This document shows, piece after piece, positions 81-36,818 of a DNA stretch of 64,000 nucleotides. Each line of letters starts with the position of its first letter. The stretch's first letter is position 1. The stretch is taken from contig CAYORT010000002.1 of NCBI GenBank assembly GCA_964406465.1, positions 58,414-122,413 on the forward strand. The letters are read 5' to 3'. The notes beneath the pieces are model-generated. The model made no database searches, was not told the DNA's origin, and worked only from the letters and a program-made list of their open reading frames with translations. The position numbers and the translations under genes were made by a program. Source of the DNA: an uncultured Chryseobacterium sp. (GTDB lineage Bacteria > Bacteroidota > Bacteroidia > Flavobacteriales_C > GCA-002722245).

Positions 81-887
81 CTATCTGGTTCTCAATCTGC
101 TTCCGCCTGTTCTCGAACCGCTGTTATTCGAATTACTTGATCGAGTACTTTTTGTTGTTGAAGAACTACTGTTTGATTTTGAAGTTTGAATATCTGTCCA
201 ATCTATCATTATTACCAAACCTAAGCGATAACTAAACATTTCATATTTAGGTGCGCTCCCTACCGAAGGCATATAAACGAAATAGTCGTCACTATATACT
301 TTCGAAAAATCTACAAACTTAGTTGGACCACCAGTGCTGTAGCTAAATGATAGCTCTAGTGCTACATTGTCATTAAATCCATATAACAGTCCGGTAGTAT
401 AACTTTGATTCCATGTGCTAGTGCTATTTGCAGGATTAGAAGTTGGAACTTGACTATTGTTAACAGGGGTTACAGCGCTATTATACACATGATTATAAGG
501 GGTAAACTCATCTTCAAATCCGGTTAATAGAAGTCCATACGAATACTCAACAAATGGCTTCAATTTATATCGATTAAACACCATACGAGTTGCTAGATTT
601 AGCTGACCAACGGTGTTGTAAATGTTTTCTGAACCATCTTTTAAATGATAAGTTTCATCTCCACAGCCCACGAAATCGAAGGTAAATCCAGTAATTCCCT
701 GCACGTATTTGTTTTTGAGTCCGCCTAGCAGCGCAAATCCCCCCGTCCAACCAGAAGTGGGATAATTGTACTTTCTTAATTCGGCTCCAGGCGCGGCAAA
801 GCCACCTCTCGGACTCAATATCAATTGAGCGTTTACCGCGCTCACACTTAAAGTTAATGCCAATAAAAAAAGTATTCTTCTAACCAT
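81..887 (-). CDS. Outer-membrane beta-barrel protein (porin-like) with a Ser/Thr/Asn/Arg-rich low-complexity C-terminal tail
   Basis: Signal peptide MVRRILFLLALTLSVSAVNAQ. Alternating aromatic/hydrophilic beta-strand pattern. The barrel-like end ...VIMIDW is followed by about 45 aa of S/T/N/R-rich tail. Confidence 0.5.
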   Translation of the reverse strand: MVRRILFLLALTLSVSAVNAQLILSPRGGFAAPGAELRKYNYPTSGWTGGFALLGGLKNKYVQGITGFTFDFVGCGDETYHLKDGSENIYNTVGQLNLATRMVFNRYKLKPFVEYSYGLLLTGFEDEFTPYNHVYNSAVTPVNNSQVPTSNPANSTSTWNQSYTTGLLYGFNDNVALELSFSYSTGGPTKFVDFSKVYSDDYFVYMPSVGSAPKYEMFSYRLGLVIMIDWTDIQTSKSNSSSSTTKSTRSSNSNNSGSRTGGSRLRTR

Positions 888-1094: not shown

Positions 1095-1763
1095 TTAATC
1101 AATCAATAAAAGACTTCCGTAATTTGCTGGAATAATTTCTTGGCCATATTTCTTTATATAACTTTCAATCTCTTCTTCATTCATTTTGTAAATATCGCAA
1201 CCAAGTTTTTTAAATGGGATTTCTAACCTGTCATATCCATAAAGATGCCCTTCACCTCCCATATATATAACTAATTTCGTTTTGGTTATCCCATAATTAA
1301 TGTTTGCATTACCTCCACCGCCATAATAATAAGCCTTGCTACCGTATACATCATTTGTATCTTCTCGATAAAACTTCTGAACAAAAGGATGCATTTTTTT
1401 TCTATCTATAAAAGGCAGAGGGAGAACTATTTCAGCCTTAATAGGATCAATGCAAACTGAGGAATAATAACTTACTTTAAAATTGTTTCTAATTCTAAAT
1501 TCAAAACACACAAGACTATCTGAATTGAATAAAATTGAATATTGACTATGACAGCAATCTCCTATTATATCGCCAAAATAATCTCTTAGCAATGCATTTA
1601 TCTTCTTAACCGATGAATCAGGCGCCTCAGAAACCAAAACAGGATAATGATATTTACAACCGTTCGTATCGACCATTAGAGAATCAATAATTTGATAAGT
1701 ACCTGCGGAAGAATATAAAAGGTTGGTTAGAAAAAAACTTGTAATAAAAATATATTTCTTCAT
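1095..1763 (-). CDS. Secreted hypothetical protein, possibly DUF4163/DUF3298 (RsiV/PdaC-like); flanked by inverted REP-like copies
   Basis: N-terminal signal peptide MKKYIFITSFFLTNLLYSSA. YHYPVL and Gly-rich motifs are present. No catalytic motif is recognisable. Confidence 0.4.
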   Translation of the reverse strand: MKKYIFITSFFLTNLLYSSAGTYQIIDSLMVDTNGCKYHYPVLVSEAPDSSVKKINALLRDYFGDIIGDCCHSQYSILFNSDSLVCFEFRIRNNFKVSYYSSVCIDPIKAEIVLPLPFIDRKKMHPFVQKFYREDTNDVYGSKAYYYGGGGNANINYGITKTKLVIYMGGEGHLYGYDRLEIPFKKLGCDIYKMNEEEIESYIKKYGQEIIPANYGSLLLID

Positions 1764-1796: not shown

Positions 1797-1844
1797 GACA
1801 ATACAATTGTCGGAGTACGCAAGTCACCCGTCTGGAGACGGGCG
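1797..1844 (-). repeat. REP-like element copy B (inverted orientation relative to copies A and C)
   Basis: Its reverse complement reads CGCCCGTCTCCAGACGGGTGACTTGCGTACTCCGACAATTGTATTGTC, about 80% identical to copy A. It sits directly after the stop of gene 1851..4196. Confidence 0.65.
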
Positions 1845-1850
1845 CCATAA

Positions 1851-4196
1851 TCACATCTTCAATACCACAAATTCCACCCTTCTATTCGCAGCCTTACCTT
1901 CATCAGTTGTATTAGGTGCCTTCGGTTTTGTCTCTCCGTAACCTTCAGATTGCAGGCGCTTTTCTGAAATACCTTTTGCAATTAAATAGTCCATGCAAGC
2001 CTTGGCTCTGTTTTTAGAAAGTTCTAAGTTTTTTGCATCGTCGCCCACGTTATCGGTATGACCGTGAATTGCGATATCTACCTTAGGGTTTTCAATTAAG
2101 AATTCATACAGTTGATCTAACACCAATTTAGATGCTCTGGTAAGCTCATAAGAGTCATTACCAAAAACGATGTCGTTCAAACGAATAGGTTTCTTCACTT
2201 CCAAAGCCTCAACCGTAATAGATGCTTTAGAGCCACGAATGGTTTTAGATCCATCAATCTCCTTGGCATTGAGTTCAACAACTTTACTTGAAAATGATTT
2301 CTTCTCTGTTTTAGCTGTAACAACATATTGTCCGTCGGGAGCATTCAACTCCTCTTCATCTTTCTTCACTATTTTCTCTTCACCATTCACCACCACCTTT
2401 TTGTGATCCACCGGTATCACCACCTCAATGCCTTTGATAGAATCTTTCTTCTCACCCGGCTTTAAAATTTGCTCTTTACCATTGATCTTTTCTACGTGTG
2501 AACCAAATTCTGCTTCCACTTCTTTTCCTCCAACTTGCAACACCACTTTTCTATCTTCGGTCTTATTTCTGTTAGGATCGGCCACCGTCATCACCGCCAC
2601 ATATTCACCTGTCTTCTTATCTACTGTAGCTTCGGTTATTTCACCTGTTTTCGCATTTTTAATTTCTACTTTTCCATTTTGTAATGGCGCTCCTTTCTCA
2701 TCTTTCAAAACACCTTTCATCATCACTACTTTCTCGGGACGAGCTTGCTCGTATAAAGGAAAATTAATGATTTGCAAAGCACCATTCGCTCCGTTAGTGA
2801 TACCACTAGATAAGAAACCATATTTACCATCTAAACTAACAATGAAGCCATGCTCATCTGCCGGAGTGTTGATGGGCATACCCAAATTCACTGGCGTCAT
2901 CCAGTTGCCATAATCATCCATTCTGGTGTAGAAAATATCGAAACCTCCTAAGCCCGGTAAAGCATTCGAGCTAAAATATAATGTCTTGCTATCGGTGTGT
3001 AAGAAGGGCGTTTTTTCGTGACCTTTGGTATTGATTACATTGCCTAAGTTTTTAGGTGCCGACCAAGAACCATCTTTATTTTTTGTGATCATAAAGAGGT
3101 CCATTGAGTATACAGGTTCATCCAACTCATTTAAAGAGAACATTGACGAATTTCGCGCACTAGAAAAAATAATCATTTTACCATCGGAAGAGATAGTAGG
3201 TTGTCCCTCCCACGTCATGTTACCACCTTCATCGTTCGCCACTCTTAGAGGACGAAATTGAGTCCATTTTCCATCCACTAAATCGGTGTAATAAATACTT
3301 GTGTTGGTCGCTTTGGTATTTCCTGTAGGCACCAATAATTTCACTGTCACATAAATTCTCTTGTTATCGGGAGTAACGCAAATACCGCCATTACCTAAAA
3401 TCTCTCCGCCATCTAAAGTACCGTTAAAATCGTTGAAAGGCATTGGCATTGGAGTACCCGTACTGAACGAGTCTACCCAAAGTTTTGTGGCTACAGTGAA
3501 GTACTCTTTCTTGTCGTTTCCGGGTCCGGCAGGCAACATCGGATTAGGAGTACCAGCCATTTGACGCACCAAATACAACTGCTCGTTATCGGGAGATAAT
3601 GCAGGTAAATATTCGTTATCCAAAGTATTTACACCCTTCACAGGTGATGGATTGTAAGGAACAGGATTCTTCAAAATCTTATCGATTGCAACACATTCTT
3701 TATACAGTCGGCGCGCAACCTCCTCATTATTGGCAGTGGTATTCCATTCATCATCTAAATAGGCTTTAAACAAAGGAGCTGCTTCAGAAAGTTTACCTTC
3801 CATATGATAGATGGTGGCTAAGTAGAAAGAACCTAGGTGACCACTAAAGGCCGGACAAAGTTCATTGAGTTTAATGAAATAGTCTTTCGACTTACCAATG
3901 AAAATTTCCTTTTTTGAGGCATCGCTATTCATTGCTACTCTCGACTTCCCCTTCTCGGGAAAGGCCAATTCAAAATAATGTCTACCTAAAGCATAGTAAG
4001 GCTCGGGCATTTGAGGATCAAGCTCAATCACCGCTTTCAAAAGATTTACTCCTTCTACTTTGTCTTTTGTGTAAGTAGCAATAGCAGCGTCGTACTTCTT
4101 TCTAACTTTCTTAGGTGCTTTGTATTCACAGTTTCCCTCTTGCGCCAATACGTTAACCGATAACAACAACAATATTACAACCCCGATTCTTCTCAT
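1851..4196 (-). CDS. PorE-like envelope protein: TPR, TolB-like PD40 beta-propeller, carboxypeptidase-regulatory-like domain and OmpA_C peptidoglycan-binding domain
   Basis: Signal peptide. TPR-like N-terminus. PD40 repeats such as DGKMIIFSSARN and DSKTLYFSSNALPGLGGFDIFYT. C-terminal OmpA_C motif IVFGNDSYEL...HGHTDNVGDDAKNLELSKNRAKA...GYGETKP. Confidence 0.75.
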   Translation of the reverse strand: MRRIGVVILLLLSVNVLAQEGNCEYKAPKKVRKKYDAAIATYTKDKVEGVNLLKAVIELDPQMPEPYYALGRHYFELAFPEKGKSRVAMNSDASKKEIFIGKSKDYFIKLNELCPAFSGHLGSFYLATIYHMEGKLSEAAPLFKAYLDDEWNTTANNEEVARRLYKECVAIDKILKNPVPYNPSPVKGVNTLDNEYLPALSPDNEQLYLVRQMAGTPNPMLPAGPGNDKKEYFTVATKLWVDSFSTGTPMPMPFNDFNGTLDGGEILGNGGICVTPDNKRIYVTVKLLVPTGNTKATNTSIYYTDLVDGKWTQFRPLRVANDEGGNMTWEGQPTISSDGKMIIFSSARNSSMFSLNELDEPVYSMDLFMITKNKDGSWSAPKNLGNVINTKGHEKTPFLHTDSKTLYFSSNALPGLGGFDIFYTRMDDYGNWMTPVNLGMPINTPADEHGFIVSLDGKYGFLSSGITNGANGALQIINFPLYEQARPEKVVMMKGVLKDEKGAPLQNGKVEIKNAKTGEITEATVDKKTGEYVAVMTVADPNRNKTEDRKVVLQVGGKEVEAEFGSHVEKINGKEQILKPGEKKDSIKGIEVVIPVDHKKVVVNGEEKIVKKDEEELNAPDGQYVVTAKTEKKSFSSKVVELNAKEIDGSKTIRGSKASITVEALEVKKPIRLNDIVFGNDSYELTRASKLVLDQLYEFLIENPKVDIAIHGHTDNVGDDAKNLELSKNRAKACMDYLIAKGISEKRLQSEGYGETKPKAPNTTDEGKAANRRVEFVVLKM

Positions 4197-4204
4197 ATTA
4201 TTTC

Positions 4205-6907
4205 TTAAAACTTAATTCCTTTCAATGCATTTTTCGCTTTATCGGCGGCGTCTTTTTTCAACTTATCGGCCTCGGCTTTGGCCTTTTCTTCAGCAATTTT
4301 CTTTTGCTTATCAGCTTCCGCTTGCGCCTGTGCCTTCAACTCATCTGCCTTCTTTCTAGCCTCTTCCTCAGCTTGCTGTTTTAATTTATCTGCCTCCTCT
4401 TTTGCTCTGTCCACCACAGCATCTTTAACTTGATCTTTTACTGATTTACCTGCTTCACCACTTGTTCCTTTAGGATAAACGGCAAATTTCGGATTCGTTA
4501 CATCTCCAGTAATTTTTATATCTAAATCGATGAACTGAGGAAGCTGCATATTGGCGCCAACTTTTTGGTTCAATGCGCCCATCAACTGAGCAGCTTGTGC
4601 GTTGGCCGCACCACCAAATTCATCACGATTGATGCTTGTAGCCATGGTGTAATCCATTTTACCATCTAAGGAATTCCAACCGCTTACTTTGGCTTTCGAT
4701 TTACTAACTTTTAAATCGAAAGGTTGAACATTCAACTTACCTTGAGAAATGGTATAATAAATTTTCAAATCTTTCAACTCTAAGTTTTTAAACTTGTCGT
4801 TCTTCACGGCAGCAGCAAAACCTTCGGTGAATTTTGAATCTTTGATTTTAGCATTTTGAATAAACAAAGTTCCTTTACCGTCGATGCAATTGTAATCAAC
4901 ATCCATAGTCGAAGTAAAATTGTTTTTTACATCTAAAGTCATGTTCAATTTACCTTCGGTATTCGCGCAAATTGGAGCCAACTTTTTAATGGTATTGAAA
5001 TTAGCATAAGCCTTAGGAATATCTAAATTCTTTACCTCAAATTGCAAATCGGCATAAGGTTTTTTAATGTCGAGAGCGTGGTATTGACCAGATAATTTAA
5101 AGTCGGCATCCAACAACTTAAAGCCATTGTTTACAAACTTCAACACTCCTTCTTTTAATATCAACTGACCACCAAAATTGGTGATATCGTAAGTATCATA
5201 CTTTATCTTCTTCAAATCTGAAGTAAGCACAAAATCAATGTTTTTTGGAATTTCCACTGCGCCTTCCGCACCAGCAGAAGCGGTATCAGAAGGAGTTGCA
5301 GCTGCAGCAGAGTCGGCCTCGGCCGCATCTTCACTCATGAATTGGTTCACATCGAAATAATTAGATGAAATAGCGAAATTTCCTTTTACCGTTTCATCTT
5401 TAAAATAGTAAGCCAGGTAATTTTCAATTTTACCGCTTGCATTTAAATCGCTATTTCCAATTTTACTTTCGAAAGTAGTTAAGTCAAGGTATTGTGGAGA
5501 AAACAACAAGTTTGCTTTGGTGATGGTAACATCGGGCATACCTTCCATTTTTGTTTTAATATCTAACAAATCAAGCGAACCGTGTGCATCAAATTTTTCG
5601 TATTCTTCCTTTTCAATAGCCGAATATCTGCCGTTTAAACTTACATCGGCTTTTACTGTTCCATGATATTCTTCGCCTTTTTCCAAAGGCATCACTTCAC
5701 CAATAACATCTAATTTCAGCATGGTTTTGATGTTACCTTTTATTGCAGCATCCGACTCGGGAGTTTTAATATGCATATCCATATCAATAGGATATTCGCC
5801 CAGTTCGGCATGCAATTTATTTAAATCGATTACGGTATGATCAAAAACTCCATCGGGATTGTTGATAGCCAAATCTATATTGATATTGTTAACCGCTTTT
5901 GGCACCGAAGGATAGCGGAAAGAAGAATTAAGCACCTTTAAATTGAAACCGAAAGCAGGCATCAACGAGTCGGTAAACATACCTTTCAAATGACCATTAA
6001 TCTCGAACTTACCTGTTGTTTTAACATCTTTCACATCTTCTCGATACACTGCAGGAATCATGGTAAATAAATCCTTGAAATCGGTGCGCTTAGCATTGAA
6101 TTTCAAGTCCATACCAAAACCTTCATCAGGCATAGAAAACCATCCATCTAAGCCCAAAGCCACATTATTTAAATTGAATTCATTGTTTTTGAAAGTGAAT
6201 TTCCAAGTCGCCAAATCCATGATTAAATCGGCAGTAATATTTGTTTTGGCATTTTTGATATAACTAACACCATCGAAATTGACTGTTAAAGCTTGCATGT
6301 CGGTTTTAGTAGACATAATGTGTTGATCCCCGTCCAACAAATAAGAACCCGAATGATTCATATTGGTAAGTTCCATTCTATAAGGAATAGATGGATCATC
6401 GTAAACGATACGCGCATTGTTAAGTGCATATTTTTCAAACACCATGGCGAAAGGATCACCCGCTTCTTCTGGTTCAACCGGTTCGGGAGTGGCCGCAGTA
6501 TCGGGCAACATAATATCTGTTAGGGTAAAATTCTTGCCGTCTTTGGTCCACAATGCATTCAACACCATTCCATCGGCTTCAAAAGAGTTCACCTTGTACT
6601 TTTTACCATCAAGAACAGAGTTGATGTCTAACTCTAAATTCAACTCATCGGCATAAACGATAGTGTCTTTATCGAAAGCACCTTTGCCTATAACCGACAC
6701 TTTTTCTATATCTAATTTAAAATTGGGGAAAGTAGAAATGATAGAAAGGTCGAAATCACCAAAATCAACCTTAGCATTAAGGTTCTCGTTGGCCACCTCT
6801 TTTACTTTGGCTACTATTTCATCTTTAAAGAAAAAAGGAATAGCCGCAACAGCAGCTACCAAAACCACAATAAGGATAAGGAATCCGATTAAAATTTTCT
6901 TGATCAT
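4205..6907 (-). CDS. AsmA-family outer-membrane biogenesis protein with a Lys/Ala/Glu-rich coiled-coil C-terminal tail
   Basis: N-terminal membrane anchor MIKKILIGFLILIVVLVAAVAAIPFFF. About 800 aa of beta-rich repetitive region. C-terminal EEADKLKQQAEEEARKKADELKAQAQAEADKQKK... Stop overlaps the aroC start region, suggesting an operon. Confidence 0.55.
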   Translation of the reverse strand: MIKKILIGFLILIVVLVAAVAAIPFFFKDEIVAKVKEVANENLNAKVDFGDFDLSIISTFPNFKLDIEKVSVIGKGAFDKDTIVYADELNLELDINSVLDGKKYKVNSFEADGMVLNALWTKDGKNFTLTDIMLPDTAATPEPVEPEEAGDPFAMVFEKYALNNARIVYDDPSIPYRMELTNMNHSGSYLLDGDQHIMSTKTDMQALTVNFDGVSYIKNAKTNITADLIMDLATWKFTFKNNEFNLNNVALGLDGWFSMPDEGFGMDLKFNAKRTDFKDLFTMIPAVYREDVKDVKTTGKFEINGHLKGMFTDSLMPAFGFNLKVLNSSFRYPSVPKAVNNINIDLAINNPDGVFDHTVIDLNKLHAELGEYPIDMDMHIKTPESDAAIKGNIKTMLKLDVIGEVMPLEKGEEYHGTVKADVSLNGRYSAIEKEEYEKFDAHGSLDLLDIKTKMEGMPDVTITKANLLFSPQYLDLTTFESKIGNSDLNASGKIENYLAYYFKDETVKGNFAISSNYFDVNQFMSEDAAEADSAAAATPSDTASAGAEGAVEIPKNIDFVLTSDLKKIKYDTYDITNFGGQLILKEGVLKFVNNGFKLLDADFKLSGQYHALDIKKPYADLQFEVKNLDIPKAYANFNTIKKLAPICANTEGKLNMTLDVKNNFTSTMDVDYNCIDGKGTLFIQNAKIKDSKFTEGFAAAVKNDKFKNLELKDLKIYYTISQGKLNVQPFDLKVSKSKAKVSGWNSLDGKMDYTMATSINRDEFGGAANAQAAQLMGALNQKVGANMQLPQFIDLDIKITGDVTNPKFAVYPKGTSGEAGKSVKDQVKDAVVDRAKEEADKLKQQAEEEARKKADELKAQAQAEADKQKKIAEEKAKAEADKLKKDAADKAKNALKGIKF

Positions 6908-6910
6908 AAA

Positions 6911-7990
6911 TTAAATTTTGTTAGATTTTGCTCTTAAAAAATGGTCTGCTAAAACAAGTGCTGCCATTGCTTCAACAATAGGCACTGCACGAGGAAGTAC
7001 GCAAGGATCATGCCTTCCTTTGCCACTTACCACGGCCTCTTTTCCCTCTTTATCGATAGAACTTTGATCACGCATTATAGTGGCTACAGGCTTAAATGCC
7101 ACATTGAAATAAATGTCTTCTCCGTTCGAAATTCCGCCTTGAATACCGCCCGAATGGTTGGTTTTGGTTTTTACCTTGCCATTTTCAGCATAAAAAGCAT
7201 CGTTGTGCTCACTACCTCGAAGTGTTAAGCCATTAAAACCCGAACCATATTCAAAACCTTTTACAGCATTAATACTTAACATGGCTTTACCTAAATCGGC
7301 ATGCAACTTATCAAACACAGGCTCGCCCAACCCTACTGGTGTGCCTTGCACTACACAAGTTACCACACCACCAATGGTATCACCTTCTTTACGAATGGAG
7401 TCAATTAATGCAATCATTTGCTCGGCCATTTGTTCATCGGGACAACGAACGATATTGTTCTCTGTTTTATTGAGGTCGAGTTGAGAATAATTTTTATCGA
7501 GCTTTAAGGCACCAACTTGCGATACATAAGCACTTATTTTAATGCCCAACTTATTCAACAACAACTTGGCAATGGCTCCAGCCACCACTCGCGACACCGT
7601 CTCACGAGCTGAACTTCTTCCTCCGCCCCTATGATCACGGTTTCCATACTTCTCTGTGTAAGTAAAATCGGCGTGCGACGGACGAAAAGAATCTTTGATA
7701 TGGTCGTAATCTTTCGATTTCTGATTGTCGTTTTTAATAACAAAACCAATAGGAACTCCCGTTGACTTTCCTTCAAAAATACCCGAAAGAAACTCCACTT
7801 CATCGGGTTCCTTACGCTGAGTCACAATTTTCGATTGTCCGGGTTTTCTTCTATCCAATTCACTTTGAATAAAAGCCAAATCTATCTCCAGTCCGGCCGG
7901 GCATCCGTCAATAATACCACCCAAAGCAACGCCATGCGATTCTCCAAAAGTGGTAACCCTAAAAATTTCTCCAAAAGTATTTGCTGCCAT
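6911..7990 (-). CDS. aroC: Chorismate synthase
   Basis: Conserved GESHG...GGIIDGCP and RKPGQS motifs with typical length. This is a strong family match. Confidence 0.9.
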
Positions 7991-8672: not shown

Positions 8673-8714
8673 GATTGTATTCACCAAAAATCACTATATT
8701 TGGTGAATACAATC
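8673..8714. promoter_or_regulatory. Perfect 16-bp inverted repeat GATTGTATTCACCAAA-(10 nt)-TTTGGTGAATACAATC immediately upstream of the ATPase start codon
   Basis: Both arms are exact reverse complements (16/16). The element ends 7 nt before ATG 8721. It is an operator or leader-hairpin candidate. Confidence 0.45.
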
Positions 8715-8720
8715 ATCAAA

Positions 8721-9845
8721 ATGATAAAAAGAGAACTTACAGCTATTGTAAAGAAGAAACTTGGTAAAGGAAAAGCAATTGTTGTTTTGGGTCCGCGACA
8801 AGTAGGTAAAACAACTTTACTACGCGAAATTTGTGAGAACAATAAAACATTTTTGTTTCTAAACGGAGATGATACCAATGTTCAATATCAAATAGAAAAC
8901 GCAAACACGCAGAGTTTAAAGCAAATTATTGGCAAACACACCTTGGTATTTATTGATGAGGCACAACGCATCAAAAACATTGGAATTAAATTGAAATTGA
9001 TAACCGATCAAATGAAAAATGTTCAGTTGTTGGTTAGTGGATCATCGGCTTTAGAACTAGCCAGTGAAATGAACGAACCATTAACAGGTAGAAAATGGGA
9101 GTATCAAATGTTTCCTGTTTCATGGAAAGAATTGCACGAATATCTCGGACACATCGACGCGCATGCCCAATTAGAACAGCGGTTGATTTACGGCATGTAC
9201 CCAGAGGTTATTACACAGCAAGGAAGTGAAAAAGAAGTTTTACAGCAGCTAACTGGTAGTTATTTATACAAAGATTTACTAGCACTAGAAGGTGTTAGAA
9301 AACCCGATCTATTGCCAAAATTATTGCGAGCACTTGCTCTTCAATTGGGTAATGAGGTTTCTTATAATGAGTTAGCAAATCTCTTGCAAGTCGATAAGAA
9401 TACGGTAAACACTTATATCGATCTAATTGAAAAAGCTTTCGTGGTTTTTCGTTTACAGCCATTTAGCAGAAACCTACGCAATGAAATAAGTAGTAGCAGA
9501 AAAATCTATTTTTATGATAATGGTATTCGAAACGCATTAATTGCTAATTTTAATTCATTGGACTTACGCAATGACAAAGGTGTTTTATGGGAAAATTTTT
9601 TAATTAGCGAACGAATGAAAACACTAAATTATAAAGGCATTTGGACTAACACTTATTTTTGGAGAACAAAAACACAACAAGAAATTGATTACCTCGAAGA
9701 ACGTGATGGTGAACTGTATGCTTACGAATTCAAATGGAGTAAACAAAAGGTGAAATTTCCAAAATCGTTCTTAGAAAATTATCAAGTTAAAGTAAGTGAA
9801 GTAATCACAAAAGAAAATTTTGATTTGTTCATAGGTGTGGAATAA
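8721..9845 (+). CDS. AAA+ ATPase (COG1373 / DUF4143 family)
   Basis: Walker A LGPRQVGKTT. Walker B LVFIDEAQ. C-terminal DUF4143-like region. The TTG at 8700 in the ORF track is probably an artefact; ATG 8721 (MIKRELT...) is preferred. Confidence 0.8.
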   Translation: MIKRELTAIVKKKLGKGKAIVVLGPRQVGKTTLLREICENNKTFLFLNGDDTNVQYQIENANTQSLKQIIGKHTLVFIDEAQRIKNIGIKLKLITDQMKNVQLLVSGSSALELASEMNEPLTGRKWEYQMFPVSWKELHEYLGHIDAHAQLEQRLIYGMYPEVITQQGSEKEVLQQLTGSYLYKDLLALEGVRKPDLLPKLLRALALQLGNEVSYNELANLLQVDKNTVNTYIDLIEKAFVVFRLQPFSRNLRNEISSSRKIYFYDNGIRNALIANFNSLDLRNDKGVLWENFLISERMKTLNYKGIWTNTYFWRTKTQQEIDYLEERDGELYAYEFKWSKQKVKFPKSFLENYQVKVSEVITKENFDLFIGVE

Positions 9846-9881: not shown

Positions 9882-12800
9882 ATGAACAAAATAATTTTCG
9901 CAAATAACAAAGTATTTTTCGCTTTACTCCTCCTATCACACGTTGCATTCTCTCAAGCCTACAATTTTCGCAACTACTCTGTAAAAGATGGAGTTGCACA
10001 GTCTCAAGTATATAGCCTTCTGCAAGATTCACGAGGCTTTTTATGGATGGGTACCCGCGGTGGTGGTATCACCAAATTTGATGGCATTAACTTTAAGACA
10101 TACAGTGTTCGCGACGGACTCATCAACAACTATGTTTTCAATATCAAGGAAGACGGTGAGCATAATTTATGGATTGGAACCAATGACGGACTCTCGAAAT
10201 TGAATGGTAAAACATTTCAAAACTTCAAACCTAAAAGAAATGGAATGTTTTGGGTGCAAGAAATTGCCATAGATAAACAAAATAGAAAATGGCTGGCTAC
10301 CAATGAGGGAGTTGTTTTGTTTGAGAACGGAAAATTCACCAACATCTCGCAAAAACTTAATTTAAAGAAGGAAATCGTTAATGCCATTCATATAGACAAA
10401 AACGGAGAGGTGTGGTTTGGTACTTCGGGCGGCCTCTTTAAATTTTCTATAGTAAATAATGATTATGTGCTGCAAGGAAAAGGAAGATGGAAAAGCCTAA
10501 TGATCAATTCCATCACTGCCATTAAGGAAGATAAAAATGGAAACATCTATGTAGGCACTTATGGCAATGGTGCATATAAATATGTTAACAAAGAATTTTC
10601 TAGAATCGACTCGAATAGCACACTCAACAAACAAACAGTACTCGATATTTATTTCGATCACCACAACAACATCTGGATAGCCACTTTAAGCAAAGGCTTA
10701 GCAGAATACAACCCAGAAGCAAAATCGCTTGTGTGGCTGGGCGAAAACGAAGGCTTAAGCAACAATCACGTAAGAAGTATCATTCAAGACAACAGTGGAA
10801 ATTTTTGGTTTGGCACATCTGGCGGCGGCGTGTGCAATTACTTTGGAAAACAATTTACTACTTACGATAAATCATCAGGATTAGCAGGAAATTTCATCTA
10901 TAGCATTTATCGCGACAGCAAAAACAAATTATGGATTGGCACTTCCGACAAAGGATTAACCATCCTCGACAGCTCTAAATTCTACACATTCAATAGCGCC
11001 AATGGTTTTGCCGATGTTAAGGTAAAAGCAATGGCAGAAGATGATTTTGGCAATATTTATATAGGCACCGACGGACAAGGAGTGTTTAGATACGACAGCA
11101 CTGGCTTTCATCAGGTGGAAGGTTTGGCTAGAAAATACATTCGTGCCATAGTAAAAGATAAAGACAGCTGCATTTGGATCGCCACCGCAGGAACTGGTTT
11201 GTACAAATTGAATTTAAAAATGGGCTCGCAACGACTTGAAAATTTTAATACAAAATCGGGATTGCTCCACGACAGATTAACCGCCTTACACATAGACAAA
11301 CAAGGTAGATTGTGGTACGGAACAGAAAATGACGGATTTACTTTTCTTCATGCCAAAAGACCAGCCATTACCATAAAAAAAGGATTGCGATCTAACTCGA
11401 TTAGATGCTTCACGGAAGATGAAAATGGTTTTCTGTGGATTGGTACTGCGGGCTCGGGAATTTCTTCCATGCCTTTGTATTATAACAATAATTTCTTGGT
11501 TTCATCATACGATCATGCCAACGGACTCACCTCCTCTAACATTTACTTGCTCACAGTTGACAAACTGAACAACTTGATCGTTGGAACCGAAACCGGATTA
11601 GACTATATCACTTTAGATAAAAACAGAAAACCTATTGAGATAAAACATTACAGCAAAGGCGAAGGATTTACCGGAATAGAAACTTGCGTAAATGCAGTAT
11701 GGAACGACAATGACGGCACGATATGGTTTGGTACCATTAACGGACTCTCGAAATACAATCCGGCCAACAAAATAAAAAATGAATTCGCTCCCATCATTAG
11801 CATTAGCGATGTGAAATTATTTTACGAAAGTATTGTAAACACGAAATACAAAAATTTTGCAGGCGATTGGAATTCGGTAAACTACTTGGAACTACCCTAC
11901 AATCAAAACCACATCAGCTTCGATTTCATGGCCATCAACTTTAGCAATCCCGATGCAGTAAAGTATCAGTGGATGCTAGAAGGATTCGACGAAAACTGTT
12001 CGCCACCTAGCAAAGAACACAGCATAGTATACTCAAATCTTAGCGCCGGCAAATACAAATTCATGGTAAAAGCTTGCAATGAAGATGGCGTTTGGAACAA
12101 AAAACCATTGATCATTTACTTCACCATCGAAGCACCATTTTGGATGAAATGGTGGTTTATTGCCACTGTAGTTTTAGCTATTATTGGCATCTTCTTCATC
12201 ATCGTTAAAATACGCGAGCGAAGAATTACAGCGAAAGCTGAAGAGGAAAGAAAAAAATTACAAATGGAAAAAGATATAGTGGAACTCGAGCAAAAAGCTT
12301 TGCGCTTGCAAATGAATCCGCACTTTATCTTCAACGCCCTCAACTCCATTCAATCGCAAATTGGCACTAACAATGACCAAGCAGCACGCTACTATTTAGC
12401 AAAATTCTCAAGATTGATGCGTCAGATTTTAGACAATTCACGCAACACTTTTATCACTTTAGAAGAGGAAGCGCACACCATTGAAAATTATTTATTGATA
12501 GAGAAATTTTGTAACGGAGATCGCTTCGATTACACCGTAACCATTCAAGATTCGATAGAAAAAGATTATGTTAAAATTCCTCCAATGTTGTTGCAGCCCT
12601 TTGTAGAAAATGCTATTAAACACGGACTCAAACATATCAACGACAAGAGAGGGATGATTCATGTTGATTTCACTGAAAAAGACAACTTGCTTGAATGTTC
12701 TGTAACCGACAACGGCGTTGGTAGAGAGAAAGCTGCTGAAATGAACACCAGCAGCAAAGAAACCTACCACAAGTCAACAGCTCTTTTGGTTACACAAGAG

Positions 12801-12917: not shown

Positions 12918-13049
12918 TGATAGAAAACAATCCATATATTTCAATTGCTAACTTCCGGGTGCGCACTTCCCTCTTAGAGAAGAGGGGTGCGATTTTGCTT
13001 GCGGGTAAGCAGGGAGATGGATTGCGTAACAACTTAATAAATTAGAATC

Positions 13050-15562: not shown

Positions 15563-15877
15563 ATGTTATCAAAAATAAAATCATTACTTGGCCTTGGGCC
15601 ATCTGTAAATTACGCACAACTGGTTAAAGAAGGTGCCATCATTGTTGATGTAAGATCAAAAGGGGAATTCGCTGGTGGTCACATCAAAAAGTCAATCAAC
15701 ATACCTGTAGATAATATCGGTCAGCAATTACACCTCCTTAAAGATAAAAACCAAACCATCATCACTTGCTGTGCTTCGGGCATGAGAAGCAGAATGGCAA
15801 AAGGAATCTTAAAAGCAAAAGGTTATCCAAATGTGCACAATGGAGGAAGTTATATCAGCTTAAACAACAAATTGTAG
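15563..15877 (+). CDS. Single-domain rhodanese (sulfurtransferase), paralog
   Basis: Motifs DVRSKGEFAGGHIKKSINIP and active-site CCASGMRS. Confidence 0.85.
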   Translation: MLSKIKSLLGLGPSVNYAQLVKEGAIIVDVRSKGEFAGGHIKKSINIPVDNIGQQLHLLKDKNQTIITCCASGMRSRMAKGILKAKGYPNVHNGGSYISLNNKL

Positions 15878-15915
15878 TAATCATCGTAGCACAAGAAATC
15901 TTTAAATCAAAAATC

Positions 15916-16350: not shown

Positions 16351-16351
16351 A

Positions 16352-17062: not shown

Positions 17063-17126
17063 AGTAATTGAAAAATATTTTTAGACTTATCTAAATTTTT
17101 ATTTATCATTGTGAAAACTTTGATAA

Positions 17127-18002: not shown

Positions 18003-18039
18003 TTTATATGAAATAAAGCAATATTTTTGTTTTATCATC

Positions 18040-19206: not shown

Positions 19207-19238
19207 GCTTTTTAAAATCTTTAAACCAAAATCTTTTT

Positions 19239-32854: not shown

Positions 32855-34933
32855 ATGAGAATTTTACTTGCCTTACTAATCCTTACTCCTTTTACAGGCT
32901 TATTTGCACAAAACGAGGCTGTTTTAAAAGAGGCTCAAAAACATTTTAATGAGCAACAGTATTCTATTGCGCTAGAAGAATTTAAAGAAGCTGCAAAATC
33001 AGATTCATTAAATGCCAACATTCAGTACAAAATAGGTTTATGTTATGTAAATCTTAAAAACAACTTACCTGCTGCAATAGTTGCTTTTGAAAATGCGGCA
33101 AAAAATGTTGCTGCCAACGCTACAGTTGAATCGGTAAAAGAAAAAAGAGCTCCACTGGTTGCTTACCTTGAATTGGCAAAAGCATATCATTTAAACTACC
33201 AGTTTGATGAAGCTGCTTTGTGGTATGAAAAATTTAAAGCTGAACTAGGTAAAGGCGCTGAAGATGAGAAATTAATGGACCTATATATCGCTCAATGTTC
33301 TTACGCTAAATTATTAATTGCCAACCCGGTTGAATTAATCGTTTCTAACTTCGGACCAACCATCAACGGCAAGTTCAAAGATTTCGCTCCAGTGCTTTCT
33401 GCAGATGAGAAAACTTTACTTTTTACATCAAGAAGATTTGGTTCAACTCAAGATGCATCAAAGAACAAAGACACGTTAATGAACGACGGTAACTACTATG
33501 AAGACATTTACATGAGTACTAAAGAAGTAAATGGATCTTGGAGTACTCCTAAAAACCTTACTACAATCAACTCTCCTTGGAATGAAGCTACCATCGGTTT
33601 ATCAGTAGATGGTCAGCAAGTGTTATTTACTTCCGACAGAGAAAAAGTAACTGCTTCTGAAAAAGGAAAAGGAAATGGCGACATCTACTTAAGTAAATTG
33701 AATGGTGACCAATGGTCAACGCCAGAGATTCTTCCTTACCCTATCAACACAAAAGATCAAGAGCCAGATGCTTGTTTTAATCTAGATGGTTCTGTTTTAT
33801 ATTTCTCTAGTGACCGTGAAGGTGGCTTAGGTGGATTCGATATCTATTTTGTGAAAAGACTTCCTAACGGAGAGTGGAGTTACCCACAAAACCTTGGTCC
33901 GAAAATCAACACTCCTTACGACGACAGAGCTCCATTCATGCACCCTGATGGCGTAACATTATTCTTCTCATCTGAAGGACACCAAAGCATGGGAGGTTTC
34001 GATGTTTTCCAAGCTATGCAAAATGAAGATGGCAGTTGGGGAGACGCAGAAAATATTGGATACCCTATCAACACTACAGGTAACGACGTATGTTATGTAA
34101 CCTCTCCTGATGGAAAAAGAGCTTACTACGCTTCTTACCGTGAAGAAGGATATGGCTCTTATGATATCTACATGATTAGCCTACCGGTTCGTCCTGAAAC
34201 TCAATTAACCGTATTCTCTGGTAACTTAACACTTGAAGGAGAAGGCTCAATAGTTCCTAATGGTGCGCAAATCGTTGTAACCGATAACGAAACAAATGAA
34301 ATCGTTGGAATCTACAAACCAAACAGCAAAACTGGTAAATATTTGTTCATCTTGCCTCCAGGAAAAAACTACAATATTACCTATGAAGCGGAAGGTGTAT
34401 TGTTTAAATCGGAGAACTTAATTGTTCCAGACAACTCTCAATTCTCTACCATTCAAAATGACATTAAATTACCAGCTATCAAAGCAGGAGAAAATATAGT
34501 ATTAAACAACATTTTCTACGAATTTGACAGTGAAAAATTAACACCTGAATCAAAAGTTGAGCTTGAGAAACTTACAAGACTTTTGATGAACAACCCTGGG
34601 TTAAAAGTTGAGTTGCAAGGACACACCGATTCTAAAGGATCAGATGCTTACAACTTAAACCTATCTCAAAAAAGAGCTGAAGAGGTTGTTAAATACCTAT
34701 TAGCAAAGGGAGTAAGTCCAGAACAGCTTAAAGCTAAAGGATATGGTGAAACTCAACCGATAGCAAAAAATGAAAATGCTGACGGAAGCGATAATCCTGA
34801 AGGAAGAAAATTAAATAGAAGAACCGTATTGAAAGTAATTTCATTAGACGGAGAAACTAACTTTGTAAACCCTATTGCTGTTCCTGATAATTTGAAAAAC
34901 ACCAAAAAAGGCGGCACAAGAAAAAAGAAATAA
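32855..34933 (+). CDS. PorE-like envelope protein paralog: TPR, PD40 beta-propeller, carboxypeptidase-regulatory-like domain and OmpA_C
   Basis: Signal peptide MRILLALLILTPFTGLFA. PD40 repeats (DGSVLYFSSDREGGLGGFDIYF..., DGVTLFFSSEGHQSMGGFDVF). OmpA_C motif FYEFDS...LQGHTDSKGSDAYNLNLSQKRAE...GYGETQP. Confidence 0.75.
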   Translation: MRILLALLILTPFTGLFAQNEAVLKEAQKHFNEQQYSIALEEFKEAAKSDSLNANIQYKIGLCYVNLKNNLPAAIVAFENAAKNVAANATVESVKEKRAPLVAYLELAKAYHLNYQFDEAALWYEKFKAELGKGAEDEKLMDLYIAQCSYAKLLIANPVELIVSNFGPTINGKFKDFAPVLSADEKTLLFTSRRFGSTQDASKNKDTLMNDGNYYEDIYMSTKEVNGSWSTPKNLTTINSPWNEATIGLSVDGQQVLFTSDREKVTASEKGKGNGDIYLSKLNGDQWSTPEILPYPINTKDQEPDACFNLDGSVLYFSSDREGGLGGFDIYFVKRLPNGEWSYPQNLGPKINTPYDDRAPFMHPDGVTLFFSSEGHQSMGGFDVFQAMQNEDGSWGDAENIGYPINTTGNDVCYVTSPDGKRAYYASYREEGYGSYDIYMISLPVRPETQLTVFSGNLTLEGEGSIVPNGAQIVVTDNETNEIVGIYKPNSKTGKYLFILPPGKNYNITYEAEGVLFKSENLIVPDNSQFSTIQNDIKLPAIKAGENIVLNNIFYEFDSEKLTPESKVELEKLTRLLMNNPGLKVELQGHTDSKGSDAYNLNLSQKRAEEVVKYLLAKGVSPEQLKAKGYGETQPIAKNENADGSDNPEGRKLNRRTVLKVISLDGETNFVNPIAVPDNLKNTKKGGTRKKK

Positions 34934-34952: not shown

Positions 34953-34987
34953 AAAAAACCTTCGCAGCAATGCGAAGGTTTTTTTTA
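34953..34987 (+). terminator. Rho-independent terminator CCTTCGCA-GCAA-TGCGAAGG followed by T8
   Basis: Perfect 8-bp stem with an A-run before and a T-run after. It separates the two tandem PorE-like genes. Confidence 0.8.
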
Positions 34988-35078
34988 TTGGCAATAATTT
35001 GTTAAAAATTAATCAAACTAATTTTTAAAGATACTTGGGCATATTCTGTGCTATGCTTATCTTACAATCGTAAATATT

Positions 35079-36818
35079 TTGAAGATGAGATCGATTTCTA
35101 CTATTCTATTTTCCATTATTTGTTTTTCGGCGTTAGCTCAAGAAGGTCCAGTACCTCCTACTGGCAATGTTGCAACTGCAAAAACATACATCACCGAAGG
35201 ATCATACGGTTTGGCTTTAGCCGAATTAAAACTAGCTATTAGAAAAGACCCAGAAGACATTAAGATAAATCAAATGATAGCGGAGTGTTATCTTAACACT
35301 AATGAAGACAAACCAAAGGCTATCGCTCATCTTGAAAAAGTAGTTAAATCGGGAAAGTACGATGCCATTGACTTATATGATTTAGGAAAAGCCTACGCAT
35401 ACAATGAAGAGATAGATAAAGCGATTGAATATTTTAATCGATACAAAAAAGAAGGGAAATTAAAACCCGATGAATTAGAAGACGTTGACCATGAAATAGA
35501 AAAAGCACAAACAGCAAAAGAATTGATGAAAATCCCCCTAAATATAACTTTCACAAACTTGGGTAAAGATGTAAATACAGAATTTTTTGAAGGCCACCCA
35601 TTTACCAACGAAAATGAATCTGCTATTTACTTCACAACAAAAAGAAAAGGCACAACGGGAGGTGGAACTGGTGATGAAGGTTTTGTTTCAGATGTATACC
35701 AAATTGAACTTAAACCTGGTGACAAATGGTCGAAGGCTAAAAATGTAGGAGCTTCTGTCAATACATTTTCATTAGAAGAAATTACATCTTTATCGAGTAA
35801 TGGCAGCTACCTCGTTTTTACAATGATTGACGAAATTGGCGCGCAAAGAATAAAATATTGTGAAAAACTAGGCAAAGCTAAATCATTTGGCAAAGCAATC
35901 GACTTTGGTGAGCTTATCAATGATGTATCAAGTATTGAAAATGCGCAGACTTCAGGTTGTATTTCTAATGACGGACAAACATGTATTTTTTCTTCAAATA
36001 GAAAAGGTGGATTTGGCGGTTTCGACTTATATATATCTATTAGAAGACCAAATGGAACATGGGGAGAACCTTTGAACTTAGGCAGTAAAATAAACACAAA
36101 ATACGACGAAACATATCCGAATTTTGGAGCCAACAATAATACACTGTATTTCGCGTCTGCAGGCCATACCAACATGGGAGGTTTTGATATTTTTAAAACC
36201 GTTTTCTCATCTGAAAGTCATGCTTTTAGCAATCCTGTTAATTTAGGATATCCTATCAACACCACCGATAATGATTATTGTATTTCTTTCAATAAAACAG
36301 GTAGAAACGCTTACATTGGAAGAAGAAAAACAGGCGGATTTGGCAACTTAGACATCTACCAATTAACTTTCAAAAATGTTGATCCTCCCTATACTGTGGT
36401 AGCGCTAAATCTAAAAGCGCATGCCAACTATCAATTGCAAATGCACAATGCCGATTCACTCATTGAATTGCACAATGCTTATTTAAATGATCCTTCTGCA
36501 AGCAAAATTCCAGCGGATACTTCTAAGAATATTATTGCTAGAATGAAAAACCTAAAAGCATCTCTCGACCCTGTAGCGGGAAGTATGATTACTGTTACCA
36601 ATGCAGCTAACAACAAAACCTACGGAGAATATTCTCCAAACCTTAAAACAGGAAGAGCAATCATGATTTTAGAACCAGGTGTTTATGAAATTACCGTTAG
36701 CAATGATAAATACAAAGTGAGTAAAACTAAGGTCACTATTCTTGATAAAGCTAACTTTGTTCAAGAAACAAAAGTTGATGTGATCATGCATAAAGGAGAA
36801 TTAGAAACTGCCAAATAG
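35079..36818 (+). CDS. PorE-like paralog lacking the OmpA_C domain (TPR, PD40 beta-propeller and carboxypeptidase-regulatory-like domain)
   Basis: Signal peptide. PD40 repeats (DGQTCIFSSNRKGGFGGFDLYI, NNTLYFASAGHTNMGGFDIF). The ORF ends after the CRD-like region. Confidence 0.7.
   Translation: MKMRSISTILFSIICFSALAQEGPVPPTGNVATAKTYITEGSYGLALAELKLAIRKDPEDIKINQMIAECYLNTNEDKPKAIAHLEKVVKSGKYDAIDLYDLGKAYAYNEEIDKAIEYFNRYKKEGKLKPDELEDVDHEIEKAQTAKELMKIPLNITFTNLGKDVNTEFFEGHPFTNENESAIYFTTKRKGTTGGGTGDEGFVSDVYQIELKPGDKWSKAKNVGASVNTFSLEEITSLSSNGSYLVFTMIDEIGAQRIKYCEKLGKAKSFGKAIDFGELINDVSSIENAQTSGCISNDGQTCIFSSNRKGGFGGFDLYISIRRPNGTWGEPLNLGSKINTKYDETYPNFGANNNTLYFASAGHTNMGGFDIFKTVFSSESHAFSNPVNLGYPINTTDNDYCISFNKTGRNAYIGRRKTGGFGNLDIYQLTFKNVDPPYTVVALNLKAHANYQLQMHNADSLIELHNAYLNDPSASKIPADTSKNIIARMKNLKASLDPVAGSMITVTNAANNKTYGEYSPNLKTGRAIMILEPGVYEITVSNDKYKVSKTKVTILDKANFVQETKVDVIMHKGELETAK

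What the first reader, a model, noticed from the sequence alone, without database searches (positions are those of the whole stretch)
1851..7990. aroC - AsmA-like - PorE-like operon, with two further PorE-like paralogs (one lacking OmpA_C) elsewhere in the window
Three minus-strand genes are packed 3-8 nt apart. A housekeeping shikimate-pathway gene is followed by a 900-aa AsmA-family envelope protein and a TPR/PD40/CRD/OmpA_C protein with the same four-domain architecture as the type IX secretion component PorE. Two more paralogs lie in tandem at 32855..34933 and 35079..36818, separated by a terminator. The second tandem copy stops before the OmpA_C domain, so it could not anchor to peptidoglycan. 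This paralog expansion and the AsmA linkage suggest an envelope-tethering module worth dissecting.
Basis: partly seen in the sequence, partly recalled or inferred. Interest (0 to 1): 0.5.

Follow-up and report, generated by a model that had tools for sequence, protein, structure and literature searches.

The report
AsmA-like bridge gene paired with PorE-like anchor
An uncultured Flavobacteriales genome carries a tightly packed gene string (aroC, an inner-membrane AsmA-like bridge protein, a cell-wall-binding PorE-like protein) whose last two genes stay adjacent across many distant Bacteroidota, which suggests an undescribed envelope partnership.

Summary
aroC (6911-7990), a 900-aa AsmA-like protein (4205-6907) and a 781-aa TPR/beta-propeller/CRD/OmpA_C protein (1851-4196, "A") lie on the minus strand, 3 and 8 nt apart. 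Two more paralogs sit in tandem at 32855-34933 ("B") and 35085-36818 ("C"), separated by a strong hairpin followed by eight U. C has no OmpA_C.

New points:
- The AsmA-like to A-type pair recurs in 37 of 71 related GTDB loci, 15 of 24 lineages, while outer flanks are lost.
- A-type proteins form their own clade. They have two invariant cysteines, no lipobox, and a generic OmpA_C.
- No paralog reaches NCBI's curated PorE or CHU_0125 cut-offs. B is the best PorE candidate, because its OmpA_C is 49% identical to PorE structure 6TOP.
- C belongs to a large conserved OmpA-less family, and the B-C tandem recurs elsewhere.
- The paralogs are ancient (25-29% identity). Multiple PorE homologues per species were reported in 2016.

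Best reading: the AsmA-like bridge and the peptidoglycan-bound A-type scaffold work together, and aroC is a passenger. This rests on gene neighbourhood only. Verdict: new variant of known kinds, moderate interest.

The parts
6911..7990 (-). aroC, chorismate synthase (359 aa); first gene of the string
   Evidence: Pfam PF01264 at 1e-146; NCBIfam TIGR00033 486 bits against cut-off 212. It lies upstream of the AsmA-like gene on the same strand in 28 of 65 related loci.
4205..6907 (-). AsmA-like protein, 900 aa. TM anchor at residues 2-26 (nt 6830-6904), beta-groove at residues 45-812 (nt 4472-6775), Lys/Glu/Ala-rich C-terminal helix at residues 821-895 (nt 4223-4447)
   Evidence: Homologues carry PF05170 or PF05359. 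AF2 model pLDDT 76.7. Foldseek gives LPD-3 9cap_A at E 2e-7 and TamB 9xdd_B at probability 0.8. The tail matches only ATP-synthase-b-type coiled coils.
1851..4196 (-). A-type PorE-like protein, 781 aa. Signal peptide at residues 1-19, helical/TPR domain nt 3669-4112, five-bladed propeller nt 2757-3617, CRD-like beta-sandwich with a lineage-specific insert nt 2238-2732, OmpA_C nt 1854-2189
4128..4130 (-). Cys23 of the A-type protein, invariant, four residues after the predicted signal-peptidase I site
   Evidence: 28 of 28 AsmA-adjacent orthologues and 26 of 26 database homologues. The preceding residues are not a lipobox.
3855..3857 (-). Cys114 of the A-type protein (Cys-Pro motif), invariant partner cysteine
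2028..2054 (-). Asp715...Asn723 of A, the equivalents of the peptidoglycan-binding Asp576/Asn584 of PorE
   Evidence: Invariant in A2. Same +8 spacing as in PorE (PMC12773672; alignment).
1797..1846 (-). Two hairpins just after the stop of A, the second followed by UCUUUU; putative end of the transcription unit
   Evidence: Fold -20.2 kcal/mol, z -3.0. Function is inferred.
32855..34933 (+). B-type PorE-like protein, 692 aa, with OmpA_C at nt 34490-34849 and Asp/Asn at 34628-34630 and 34652-34654. Best PorE candidate in the window
   Evidence: NCBIfam PorE 335 bits and CHU_0125 336 bits. OmpA_C gives 86.5 bits and 49% identity to PorE 6TOP. Homologues at 46-56% identity are widespread.
34953..34988 (+). 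Intrinsic terminator between B and C
   Evidence: An uninterrupted hairpin stem (a C/G-containing core extended by A-U pairs from the flanking A and U runs) followed by U8, -19.3 kcal/mol, z -6.3.
35085..36818 (+). C-type paralog, 577 aa: TPR, propeller and CRD, with no OmpA_C
   Evidence: 131 of the 150 nearest cluster representatives also lack OmpA_C. The next gene starts at 36825, so there is no room for a remnant.

Best explanation
The window comes from an uncultured Flavobacteriales genome that has a type IX secretion system. Its three PorE-like genes belong to three ancient subfamilies of the TPR / five-bladed propeller / CRD / (OmpA_C) periplasmic protein superfamily.

**Proposed mechanism.** aroC, the AsmA-like gene and the A-type gene are co-transcribed (inferred from the 3- and 8-nt gaps). 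The last two products act together.
- The AsmA-like protein is anchored in the inner membrane by its N-terminal helix. It extends a bridge-type beta-groove across the periplasm, as AsmA/TamB/YdbH-type lipid-transfer bridges do.
- The A-type protein is exported by the Sec pathway and is not lipidated. It is fixed non-covalently to peptidoglycan through its OmpA_C domain (Asp715/Asn723).
- Its TPR and propeller surfaces hold or position the distal part of the bridge, or that bridge's outer-membrane partner.
- The two invariant cysteines most likely form a structural disulfide in the TPR domain.

**Other genes.** aroC is a passenger that shares the promoter. B is the likeliest functional counterpart of PorE. 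C is a conserved anchor-less relative that can bind the same kind of partners without tying them to the wall.

**Shown:** gene order, domain content, folds, conservation of the pair, and the subfamily signatures.
**Inferred:** co-transcription, physical interaction, lipid transport, and the disulfide.
For: - **Spacing.** Gaps of 3 and 8 nt.
- **AsmA-like identity.**
- **Forward synteny.** An A-type gene lies directly downstream on the same strand in 37 of 71 loci with enough flank. Many gaps are under 70 nt. The pair is present in 15 of 24 clusters at 60% AsmA identity. The OmpH-like and 222-aa flanking genes are conserved only in the three closest loci.
- **Reverse check.** Starting from A-type proteins, an AsmA-like gene lies immediately upstream in 4 of 7 cases (P0186, P0205, P0197, P0196).
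- **Second arrangement.** A B-like gene lies upstream of the AsmA-like gene in one further lineage (9 loci). L052 clusters AsmA, an A-type gene and two more paralogs.
- **A-type clade and signature.** A separate clade with the invariant Cys23/Cys114 pair.
- **Peptidoglycan-binding residues.** Conserved in A (PMC12773672).
- **Background knowledge.** AsmA-like proteins are known to need envelope partners (TamB-TamL, YdbH-YnbE). F. johnsoniae has five uncharacterised AsmA-like proteins (PMC12045153).
Against: - The case rests on gene neighbourhood alone. No interaction, co-expression or phenotype data exist.
- Roughly half of related loci lack the pair, so the partnership is not obligatory.
- The loci are related MAGs, so counts overstate independence. 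At 45-50% AsmA identity only 3-9 clusters remain.
- aroC is also conserved next to the AsmA-like gene (28 of 65), and sometimes next to the A-type gene without AsmA (P0225). Part of the order may therefore be inherited gene order rather than selection.
- The window's AsmA-like protein gives no direct Pfam AsmA hit.
- I could not read model coordinates, so the Cys23-Cys114 distance is untested.
Confidence: 0.45

Rival explanations
1. No functional coupling. The aroC / AsmA-like / A-type order is inherited gene order. The A-type protein is a general Pal-like tether between outer membrane and peptidoglycan, as proposed for CHU_0125. The AsmA-like protein works independently.
For: - A scores slightly higher on the CHU_0125 'outer membrane integrity' model than on PorE (217 against 200 bits).
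- aroC, which has no plausible envelope role, is conserved in the same string (28 of 65) and stays near A-type genes even where AsmA is gone.
- About half of the loci lack the pair.
- Independence is limited.
Against: - The pair persists down to 33-41% AsmA identity, while outer flanks are lost beyond the three closest loci.
- Gaps are tight in many lineages.
- A different PorE-like subfamily is linked to the same AsmA-like family in another lineage.
- With 2-13 paralogs per genome (PMC5053529), chance adjacency would be well below 1%.
- The flanks of CHU_0125 are too short to hold a 2.7-kb AsmA gene (2.4 kb holds three genes and 2.0 kb holds two; PMC5891637). The characterised Pal-like member is therefore not of this type.
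Confidence: 0.3
2. The module is a type IX secretion accessory. The A-type protein is a PorE paralog that anchors a PorP/SprF-like outer-membrane partner for a subset of cargo, and the AsmA-like protein supplies lipid or anchor material for that pathway.
For: - The organism has PorT/SprT at 61735-62442 (206.7 bits against cut-off 125).
- The domain order matches PorE, including a five-bladed propeller.
- In loci without an A-type gene, the gene after the AsmA-like gene is often T9SS-related: PorZ-like in L031 and CTD-bearing cargo in L046, L049, L063, L064 and L072.
- CTD genes make up 19 of 145 genes at positions +1/+2, against 38 of 686 elsewhere (Fisher p 0.003, uncorrected for relatedness).
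Against: - A fails the curated PorE threshold by a factor of three.
- A lacks the lipoprotein signal that PorE has (PMC5053529, PMC7192894).
- A's OmpA_C is not specifically PorE-like (51 bits, rank 15), unlike B's.
- No PorP/SprF-like or CTD gene lies next to the window operon.
- CTD cargo genes are common in these genomes (6.3%), so the enrichment is modest.
Confidence: 0.15
3. C (35085-36818) is a decayed, truncated copy of B with no function.
For: It lacks OmpA_C and sits directly after a complete paralog.
Against: - The reading frame is intact and has a signal peptide.
- It is only 29% identical to B.
- 131 of the 150 nearest 50%-identity cluster representatives also lack OmpA_C, with a median length of 537 aa. 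Several align end to end with C.
- A B-then-OmpA-less tandem recurs in L088 and L087.
Confidence: 0.03

Closest known systems
[quoted passage not shown]
   Same: - Same domain order: TPR, five-bladed beta-propeller, CRD, OmpA_C.
- The peptidoglycan-binding Asp/Asn pair is conserved in A and B.
- B's OmpA_C is 49% identical to the solved PorE domain (PMC5053529, PMC12773672).
   Different: - PorE is a lipoprotein in a queD-queE-porE operon. A, B and C have signal-peptidase I type signals without a lipobox cysteine.
- None reaches the NCBIfam PorE cut-off (200, 335 and 135 bits against 600).
- A has an insert of about 110 aa after the CRD, a twin-cysteine signature and an AsmA-like neighbour.
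- C has no OmpA_C, the domain that is essential for PorE function.
CHU_0125 of Cytophaga hutchinsonii (Pal-like outer-membrane integrity protein)
   Same: - TPR + PD40 + OmpA_C architecture.
- It is marginally the best-scoring curated family for all three window proteins (217, 336 and 174 bits).
   Different: - All scores are far below the 620-bit cut-off.
- The flanking genes of CHU_0125 are small, so it is not AsmA-linked (PMC5891637).
- No phenotype data exist for the window proteins.
AsmA-like / bridge-like lipid-transfer proteins with envelope partners (TamB-TamA/TamL, YdbH-YnbE, YhdP)
   Same: - N-terminal membrane anchor, a long beta-groove, and a size (900 aa) like YdbH.
- The gene is adjacent to a candidate partner gene, as with tamA-tamB and F. 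johnsoniae tamB2-tamL2 (PMC12045153).
   Different: - The neighbour is neither an Omp85 barrel nor a small lipoprotein. It is a soluble peptidoglycan-binding TPR/propeller protein.
- The C-terminus is a long Lys/Glu/Ala-rich helix rather than a TamB-type pseudosubstrate domain.
- The window protein is too divergent for a direct Pfam AsmA hit.
TolB-Pal
   Same: PD40 repeats and an OmpA_C peptidoglycan-binding domain occur in one periplasmic system.
   Different: - Here both are fused in one chain.
- Pal model 75 bits against cut-off 125.
- No tolQRA genes lie nearby.

Membership tests
AsmA-like (bridge-like lipid-transfer) proteins | Single N-terminal transmembrane anchor | tested here: met
   Hydrophobic residues 2-26 (IKKILIGFLILIVVLVAAVAAIPFF), modelled as a helix.
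AsmA-like (bridge-like lipid-transfer) proteins | Extended repeating beta-groove (beta-taco) fold | tested here: met
   The AF2 model is nearly all beta between residues 45 and 812. The top PDB match is LPD-3 (E 2e-7, probability 1.0), and TamB matches at probability 0.8. TM-scores are low, as expected for long flexible rods.
AsmA-like (bridge-like lipid-transfer) proteins | Match to the Pfam AsmA (PF05170) or DUF748 models | tested here: inconclusive
   The window protein has no hit even at E<=10. Of 19 full-length homologues, 10 hit AsmA (best 7.8e-20) and 5 hit DUF748. Membership is therefore transitive.
AsmA-like (bridge-like lipid-transfer) proteins | Lipid binding or transfer between the membranes, and a defined outer-membrane partner | not testable with these tools
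   Needs biochemistry and genetics.
PorE family, T9SS (NCBIfam NF052230) | Score above the curated cut-off (600 bits) | tested here: not met
   A 200, B 335 and C 135 bits. None of the 20 other A-, B- and B2-type homologues tested passes either.
PorE family, T9SS (NCBIfam NF052230) | Four domains in the order TPR, beta-propeller, CRD, OmpA_C | tested here: met
   Met for A (model) and for B (contiguous alignment to profile positions 16-600; homologues carry PF13620). Not met for C, which has no OmpA_C.
PorE family, T9SS (NCBIfam NF052230) | Lipoprotein (type II signal peptide with lipobox cysteine) | tested here: not met
   The signals end ...VLAQE...LFAQN and ...ALAQE. B and C have no Cys near the cleavage site. 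The Cys of A is preceded by E-G-N, and by P, K, D or T in orthologues. This was judged by sequence rule; no predictor was run.
PorE family, T9SS (NCBIfam NF052230) | Peptidoglycan-binding Asp and Asn (Asp576/Asn584 in PorE) | tested here: met
   A has Asp715/Asn723 and B has Asp592/Asn600, with the same spacing (PMC12773672). Absent in C.
PorE family, T9SS (NCBIfam NF052230) | Binds PorP and is required for secretion of CTD cargo | not testable with these tools
   Needs pull-downs and mutants.
CHU_0125 family (NCBIfam NF053607) | Score above the curated cut-off (620 bits) | tested here: not met
   A 217, B 336 and C 174 bits.
TolB / Pal | Six-bladed TolB propeller with a TolB N-terminal domain; separate Pal lipoprotein; tolQRA context | tested here: not met

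The most novel reading that the evidence does not exclude
In many Bacteroidota, an AsmA-like bridge protein uses a peptidoglycan-anchored, twin-cysteine TPR/propeller protein as its dedicated periplasmic partner. This would be a new class of AsmA partner that replaces the Omp85-type (TamA/TamL) or small-lipoprotein (YnbE) partners. It would fix a lipid-transfer bridge to the cell wall. The invariant cysteines might make a covalent disulfide link to a partner, in the way SprF and PorG are linked to GldK/PorK.
Probability: 0.25. Interest if true: 0.7.

Novelty: new variant of a known kind. Interest (0 to 1): 0.45.

Why it matters
- **Open question.** How AsmA-like bridges are positioned and partnered in the envelope is unresolved. 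In Bacteroidota only TamB-TamL has been studied, and five further AsmA-like proteins of F. johnsoniae have no assigned role (PMC12045153).
- **PorE homologues.** The roles of the multiple PorE homologues outside Porphyromonas are also unknown (PMC9127263).
- **What this finding adds.** A conserved operon joining one AsmA-like family to one recognisable PorE-like subfamily gives both problems a concrete, testable pairing. It also gives sequence rules (twin Cys, no lipobox, generic OmpA_C) for separating that subfamily from the likely true PorE.

Tried and rejected
- Direct Pfam and NCBIfam scans of the 900-aa protein found nothing except a weak GspN hit (E 2e-4).
- PDB sequence searches with the protein and with its family profile matched only ATP-synthase-b-type coiled coils, through the C-terminal helix.
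- Exact-sequence look-up of the window's own A protein found no record, so the source contig could not be named.
- The afdb50 fold library was not available. I therefore could not identify named orthologues such as the matching F. johnsoniae locus tags.
- I found no full-length PorE or CHU_0125 reference sequence. Orthology of A, B and C to them could be judged only through NCBIfam scores and the 6TOP C-terminal domain.
- Scanning ten more paralogs from related loci for a true PorE found none above cut-off.
- A home-built T9SS CTD profile found no cargo gene in the window.
- The sigma-70 promoter scan is uninformative for Bacteroidota, and the terminator scan missed the clear B-C terminator.
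- Rejected: C as a pseudogene, TolB/Pal identity, and recent duplication of the paralogs.
Full report
**1. What is in the sequence**

Three minus-strand ORFs occupy 6911-7990, 4205-6907 and 1851-4196, with 3 nt and 8 nt between them.

- **First ORF.** It is chorismate synthase (Pfam 1e-146; NCBIfam aroC 486 bits against a cut-off of 212).
- **Second ORF (900 aa).** It has no Pfam hit of its own, even at E<=10.
  - About 1,100 database proteins match it. Full-length relatives at 37-42% identity carry PF05170 (AsmA) or PF05359 and are named 'AsmA-like C-terminal region-containing protein'. Ten of 19 aligned homologues hit AsmA directly.
  - The AlphaFold model built on that alignment (pLDDT 76.7) shows an N-terminal helix at 2-26, almost uninterrupted beta-strands from 45 to 812, and a low-confidence Lys/Glu/Ala-rich helix at 821-895.
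  - Its best solved-structure match is the bridge-like lipid-transfer protein LPD-3 (E 2e-7). TamB from the TamAB complex also appears (probability 0.8).
  - I accept 'AsmA-like', noting that the assignment is transitive.
- **Third ORF (781 aa, 'A').** It has PD40 repeats and an OmpA domain with weak TPR.
  - Its model (pLDDT 83.7, pTM 0.79) has a helical domain (29-176), a propeller (194-480), a beta-sandwich region (489-653) and OmpA_C (about 670-780).
- **Downstream of A.** Two hairpins follow its stop codon.

**2. The other two paralogs**

- **B.** 32855-34933, 692 aa from the ATG, with TPR, PD40 and OmpA.
- **C.** It most likely starts at ATG 35085 (577 aa). It has TPR, PD40 and a weak CRD but no OmpA_C by Pfam, NCBIfam or a home-built OmpA_C profile. 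The next gene begins 7 nt after its stop, so there is no room for a remnant domain.
- **Between B and C.** An uninterrupted hairpin (a C/G-containing core extended by A-U pairs) followed by eight U lies between them (-19.3 kcal/mol, z -6.3).
- **Count.** These three are the only such ORFs in the window.

**3. The paralogs are old and belong to three clades**

- A, B and C are 25-29% identical to one another.
- A neighbour-joining tree of 44 sequences separates three groups: an A clade, a B clade with a sister 'B2' group, and a C clade.
- Multiple PorE homologues per species (2-13), some with extensions and longer CRD regions, were reported in 2016 (PMC5053529). The expansion itself is therefore not new.

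**4. Are any of them PorE?**

- All three hit NCBI's curated PorE and CHU_0125 models, but far below the cut-offs. A scores 200 and 217 bits, B 335 and 336, and C 135 and 174, against cut-offs of 600 and 620.
- Twenty further homologues of every clade behave the same way.
- PorE is a lipoprotein (PMC5053529, PMC7192894). None of the window proteins has a lipobox cysteine.
- The peptidoglycan-binding Asp and Asn that are essential in PorE (PMC12773672) are present in A (Asp715/Asn723, invariant across the clade) and in B.
- The OmpA_C of B is specifically PorE-like. It gives 86.5 bits and 49% identity (43 of 87 residues) to structure 6TOP, against 63 bits or less for every other OmpA-family structure.
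- The OmpA_C of A gives only 51 bits to 6TOP and ranks it 15th, behind generic OmpA domains.
- B is also far more conserved across taxa (46-56% identity in many hits).
- B is therefore the best PorE candidate, and A is something else.
- The organism does have type IX secretion: PorT/SprT lies at 61735-62442 (206.7 bits against a cut-off of 125).

**5. The A clade has its own signature**

- Every A-type protein examined has two invariant cysteines. One lies three to eight residues after the signal-peptidase I site (Cys23), and one sits in a Cys-Pro motif at the end of a TPR helix (Cys114).
- This holds for 28 of 28 AsmA-adjacent orthologues and 26 of 26 database homologues.
- B and C lack them.
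- The residues before Cys23 (N, P, K, D, T) exclude a lipobox.
- The roughly 110-residue beta-rich insert between the CRD and OmpA_C occurs only in the closer relatives, which are 780-830 aa long against about 660-690 aa for the rest.

**6. The AsmA-like / A-type pair is conserved**

- **Forward test.** I fetched 80 loci from GTDB species genomes using the AsmA-like alignment. Their identity to the window protein is 36-41%, apart from three close relatives.
  - Among the 71 loci with at least 2.5 kb downstream, 37 have an A-type gene directly after the AsmA-like gene on the same strand. Many gaps are under 70 nt.
  - aroC lies upstream on the same strand in 28 of 65 loci.
  - The window's outer neighbours (the OmpH-like gene and the 222-aa ORF) are conserved only in the three closest loci.
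  - After clustering the AsmA-like proteins at 60% identity, 15 of 24 clusters contain the pair.
- **Reverse test.** Starting from seven distant A-type proteins, four have an AsmA-like gene immediately upstream. These include a Bacteroidales MAG and a Vicingus MAG. One has aroC directly upstream with no AsmA, one has aroC 3 kb away, and one has neither adjacent.
- **Second arrangement.** In one further lineage (9 loci) a B2-type gene lies upstream of the same AsmA-like family. In L052 the AsmA-like gene, an A-type gene and two more paralogs are clustered.
- **Characterised members.** Neither is arranged like this. porE follows queD-queE (PMC5053529), and the flanks of chu_0125 are too short to hold a 2.7-kb gene (PMC5891637).
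- **Literature.** I found no paper linking AsmA-like and PorE-like proteins.

**7. The B-C locus is conserved too**

- The order recR, GT2 glycosyltransferase, 2-oxoacid dehydrogenase E2, then a PorE-like array is found in L087 and L089.
- L088 has a B orthologue followed by a 572-aa OmpA-less C orthologue. L087 ends its array with a 493-aa OmpA-less protein.
- An exhaustive HMMER search with C found 2,652 cluster representatives at E<=1e-30. Of the best 150, 131 lack OmpA_C, with a median length of 537 aa. Several align with C from end to end.
- C is therefore a member of a conserved anchor-less family, not a truncation.

**8. Interpretation**

- **Best reading (confidence 0.45).** The AsmA-like bridge and the wall-bound A-type scaffold form a functional pair, aroC is a passenger, B is the probable PorE equivalent, and C is an anchor-less relative. 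The mechanism is inferred from anatomy and neighbourhood only.
- **Main rival (0.3).** The order is simply inherited, and A is a general Pal-like tether.
- **Second rival (0.15).** The module belongs to type IX secretion.
  - In loci without an A-type gene, the gene after the AsmA-like gene is often PorZ-like or a CTD-bearing cargo.
  - CTD genes are modestly enriched at positions +1/+2: 19 of 145 against 38 of 686 (p 0.003, uncorrected for relatedness).

**9. Verdict**

- Equating the operon protein with PorE is not supported.
- The finding is a new variant within two known superfamilies. It offers a concrete, testable partnership hypothesis and is of moderate interest.

Noticed in passing
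window 61735-62442 (-), next to 62443-63201 (-): A PorT/SprT type IX secretion / gliding protein (NCBIfam NF052311, 206.7 bits against cut-off 125) lies beside a UbiE-type methyltransferase. It is the only T9SS core gene seen in the window and shows that the organism has the system.
   Followed up: partly
related loci L031, L046, L049, L063, L064, L072 (gene directly after the AsmA-like gene): Where no PorE-like gene follows the AsmA-like gene, the next gene is often PorZ-like or carries a T9SS C-terminal sorting domain. CTD genes make up 19 of 145 genes at +1/+2 against 38 of 686 elsewhere (p 0.003, not corrected for relatedness).
   Followed up: partly
window 28719-36818 (+); L087, L088, L089: The order recR, 657-aa GT2 glycosyltransferase, 2-oxoacid dehydrogenase E2, then a PorE-like tandem array is conserved in distant Flavobacteriales/Bacteroidia genomes. 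The arrays hold two to four paralogs and often end in an OmpA-less copy.
   Followed up: partly
window 38893-40854 (-): A 653-aa fusion of a HAD phosphatase domain (32-202), a D-2-hydroxyacid dehydrogenase (258-570) and an ACT domain (586-648). It looks like a fused SerB-SerA serine-pathway enzyme.
   Followed up: no
window 15766-21946 (+): A redox cluster: an OsmC-like protein, a rhodanese-thioredoxin fusion (16352-17062), a thioredoxin-reductase-like flavoprotein (20366-21301) and a DsbA-like protein (21311-21946). TsaD and a MetA-pathway-like outer-membrane protein are interspersed.
   Followed up: no
window 23714-25501 (-), 81-887 (-), 1095-1763 (-), 48779-49720 (+), 21949-22428 (+): ORFs of 159-595 aa with no Pfam or NCBIfam match. 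The 222-aa ORF just downstream of the A-type gene is conserved (58%) only in the closest relative, L001.
   Followed up: no
window 9882-13793 (+): A 1011-aa sensor with Reg_prop/Y_Y_Y propellers and a LytS-type histidine kinase, followed by a LytTR response regulator. A DUF4143 AAA ATPase lies just upstream (8700-9845).
   Followed up: no
window 34953-34988 (+): The consensus terminator scan did not report this clear hairpin plus U8, although folding gives -19.3 kcal/mol (z -6.3). Negative results from that scan should not be trusted here.
   Followed up: yes
PDB chain 7f4v_aB (not in the window): A chain labelled photosystem I PsaB (872 aa) carries a C-terminal OmpA_C-like segment. That segment is the single best sequence match to B's OmpA_C (87.9 bits). 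This is an odd annotation or fusion in the PDB entry.
   Followed up: no
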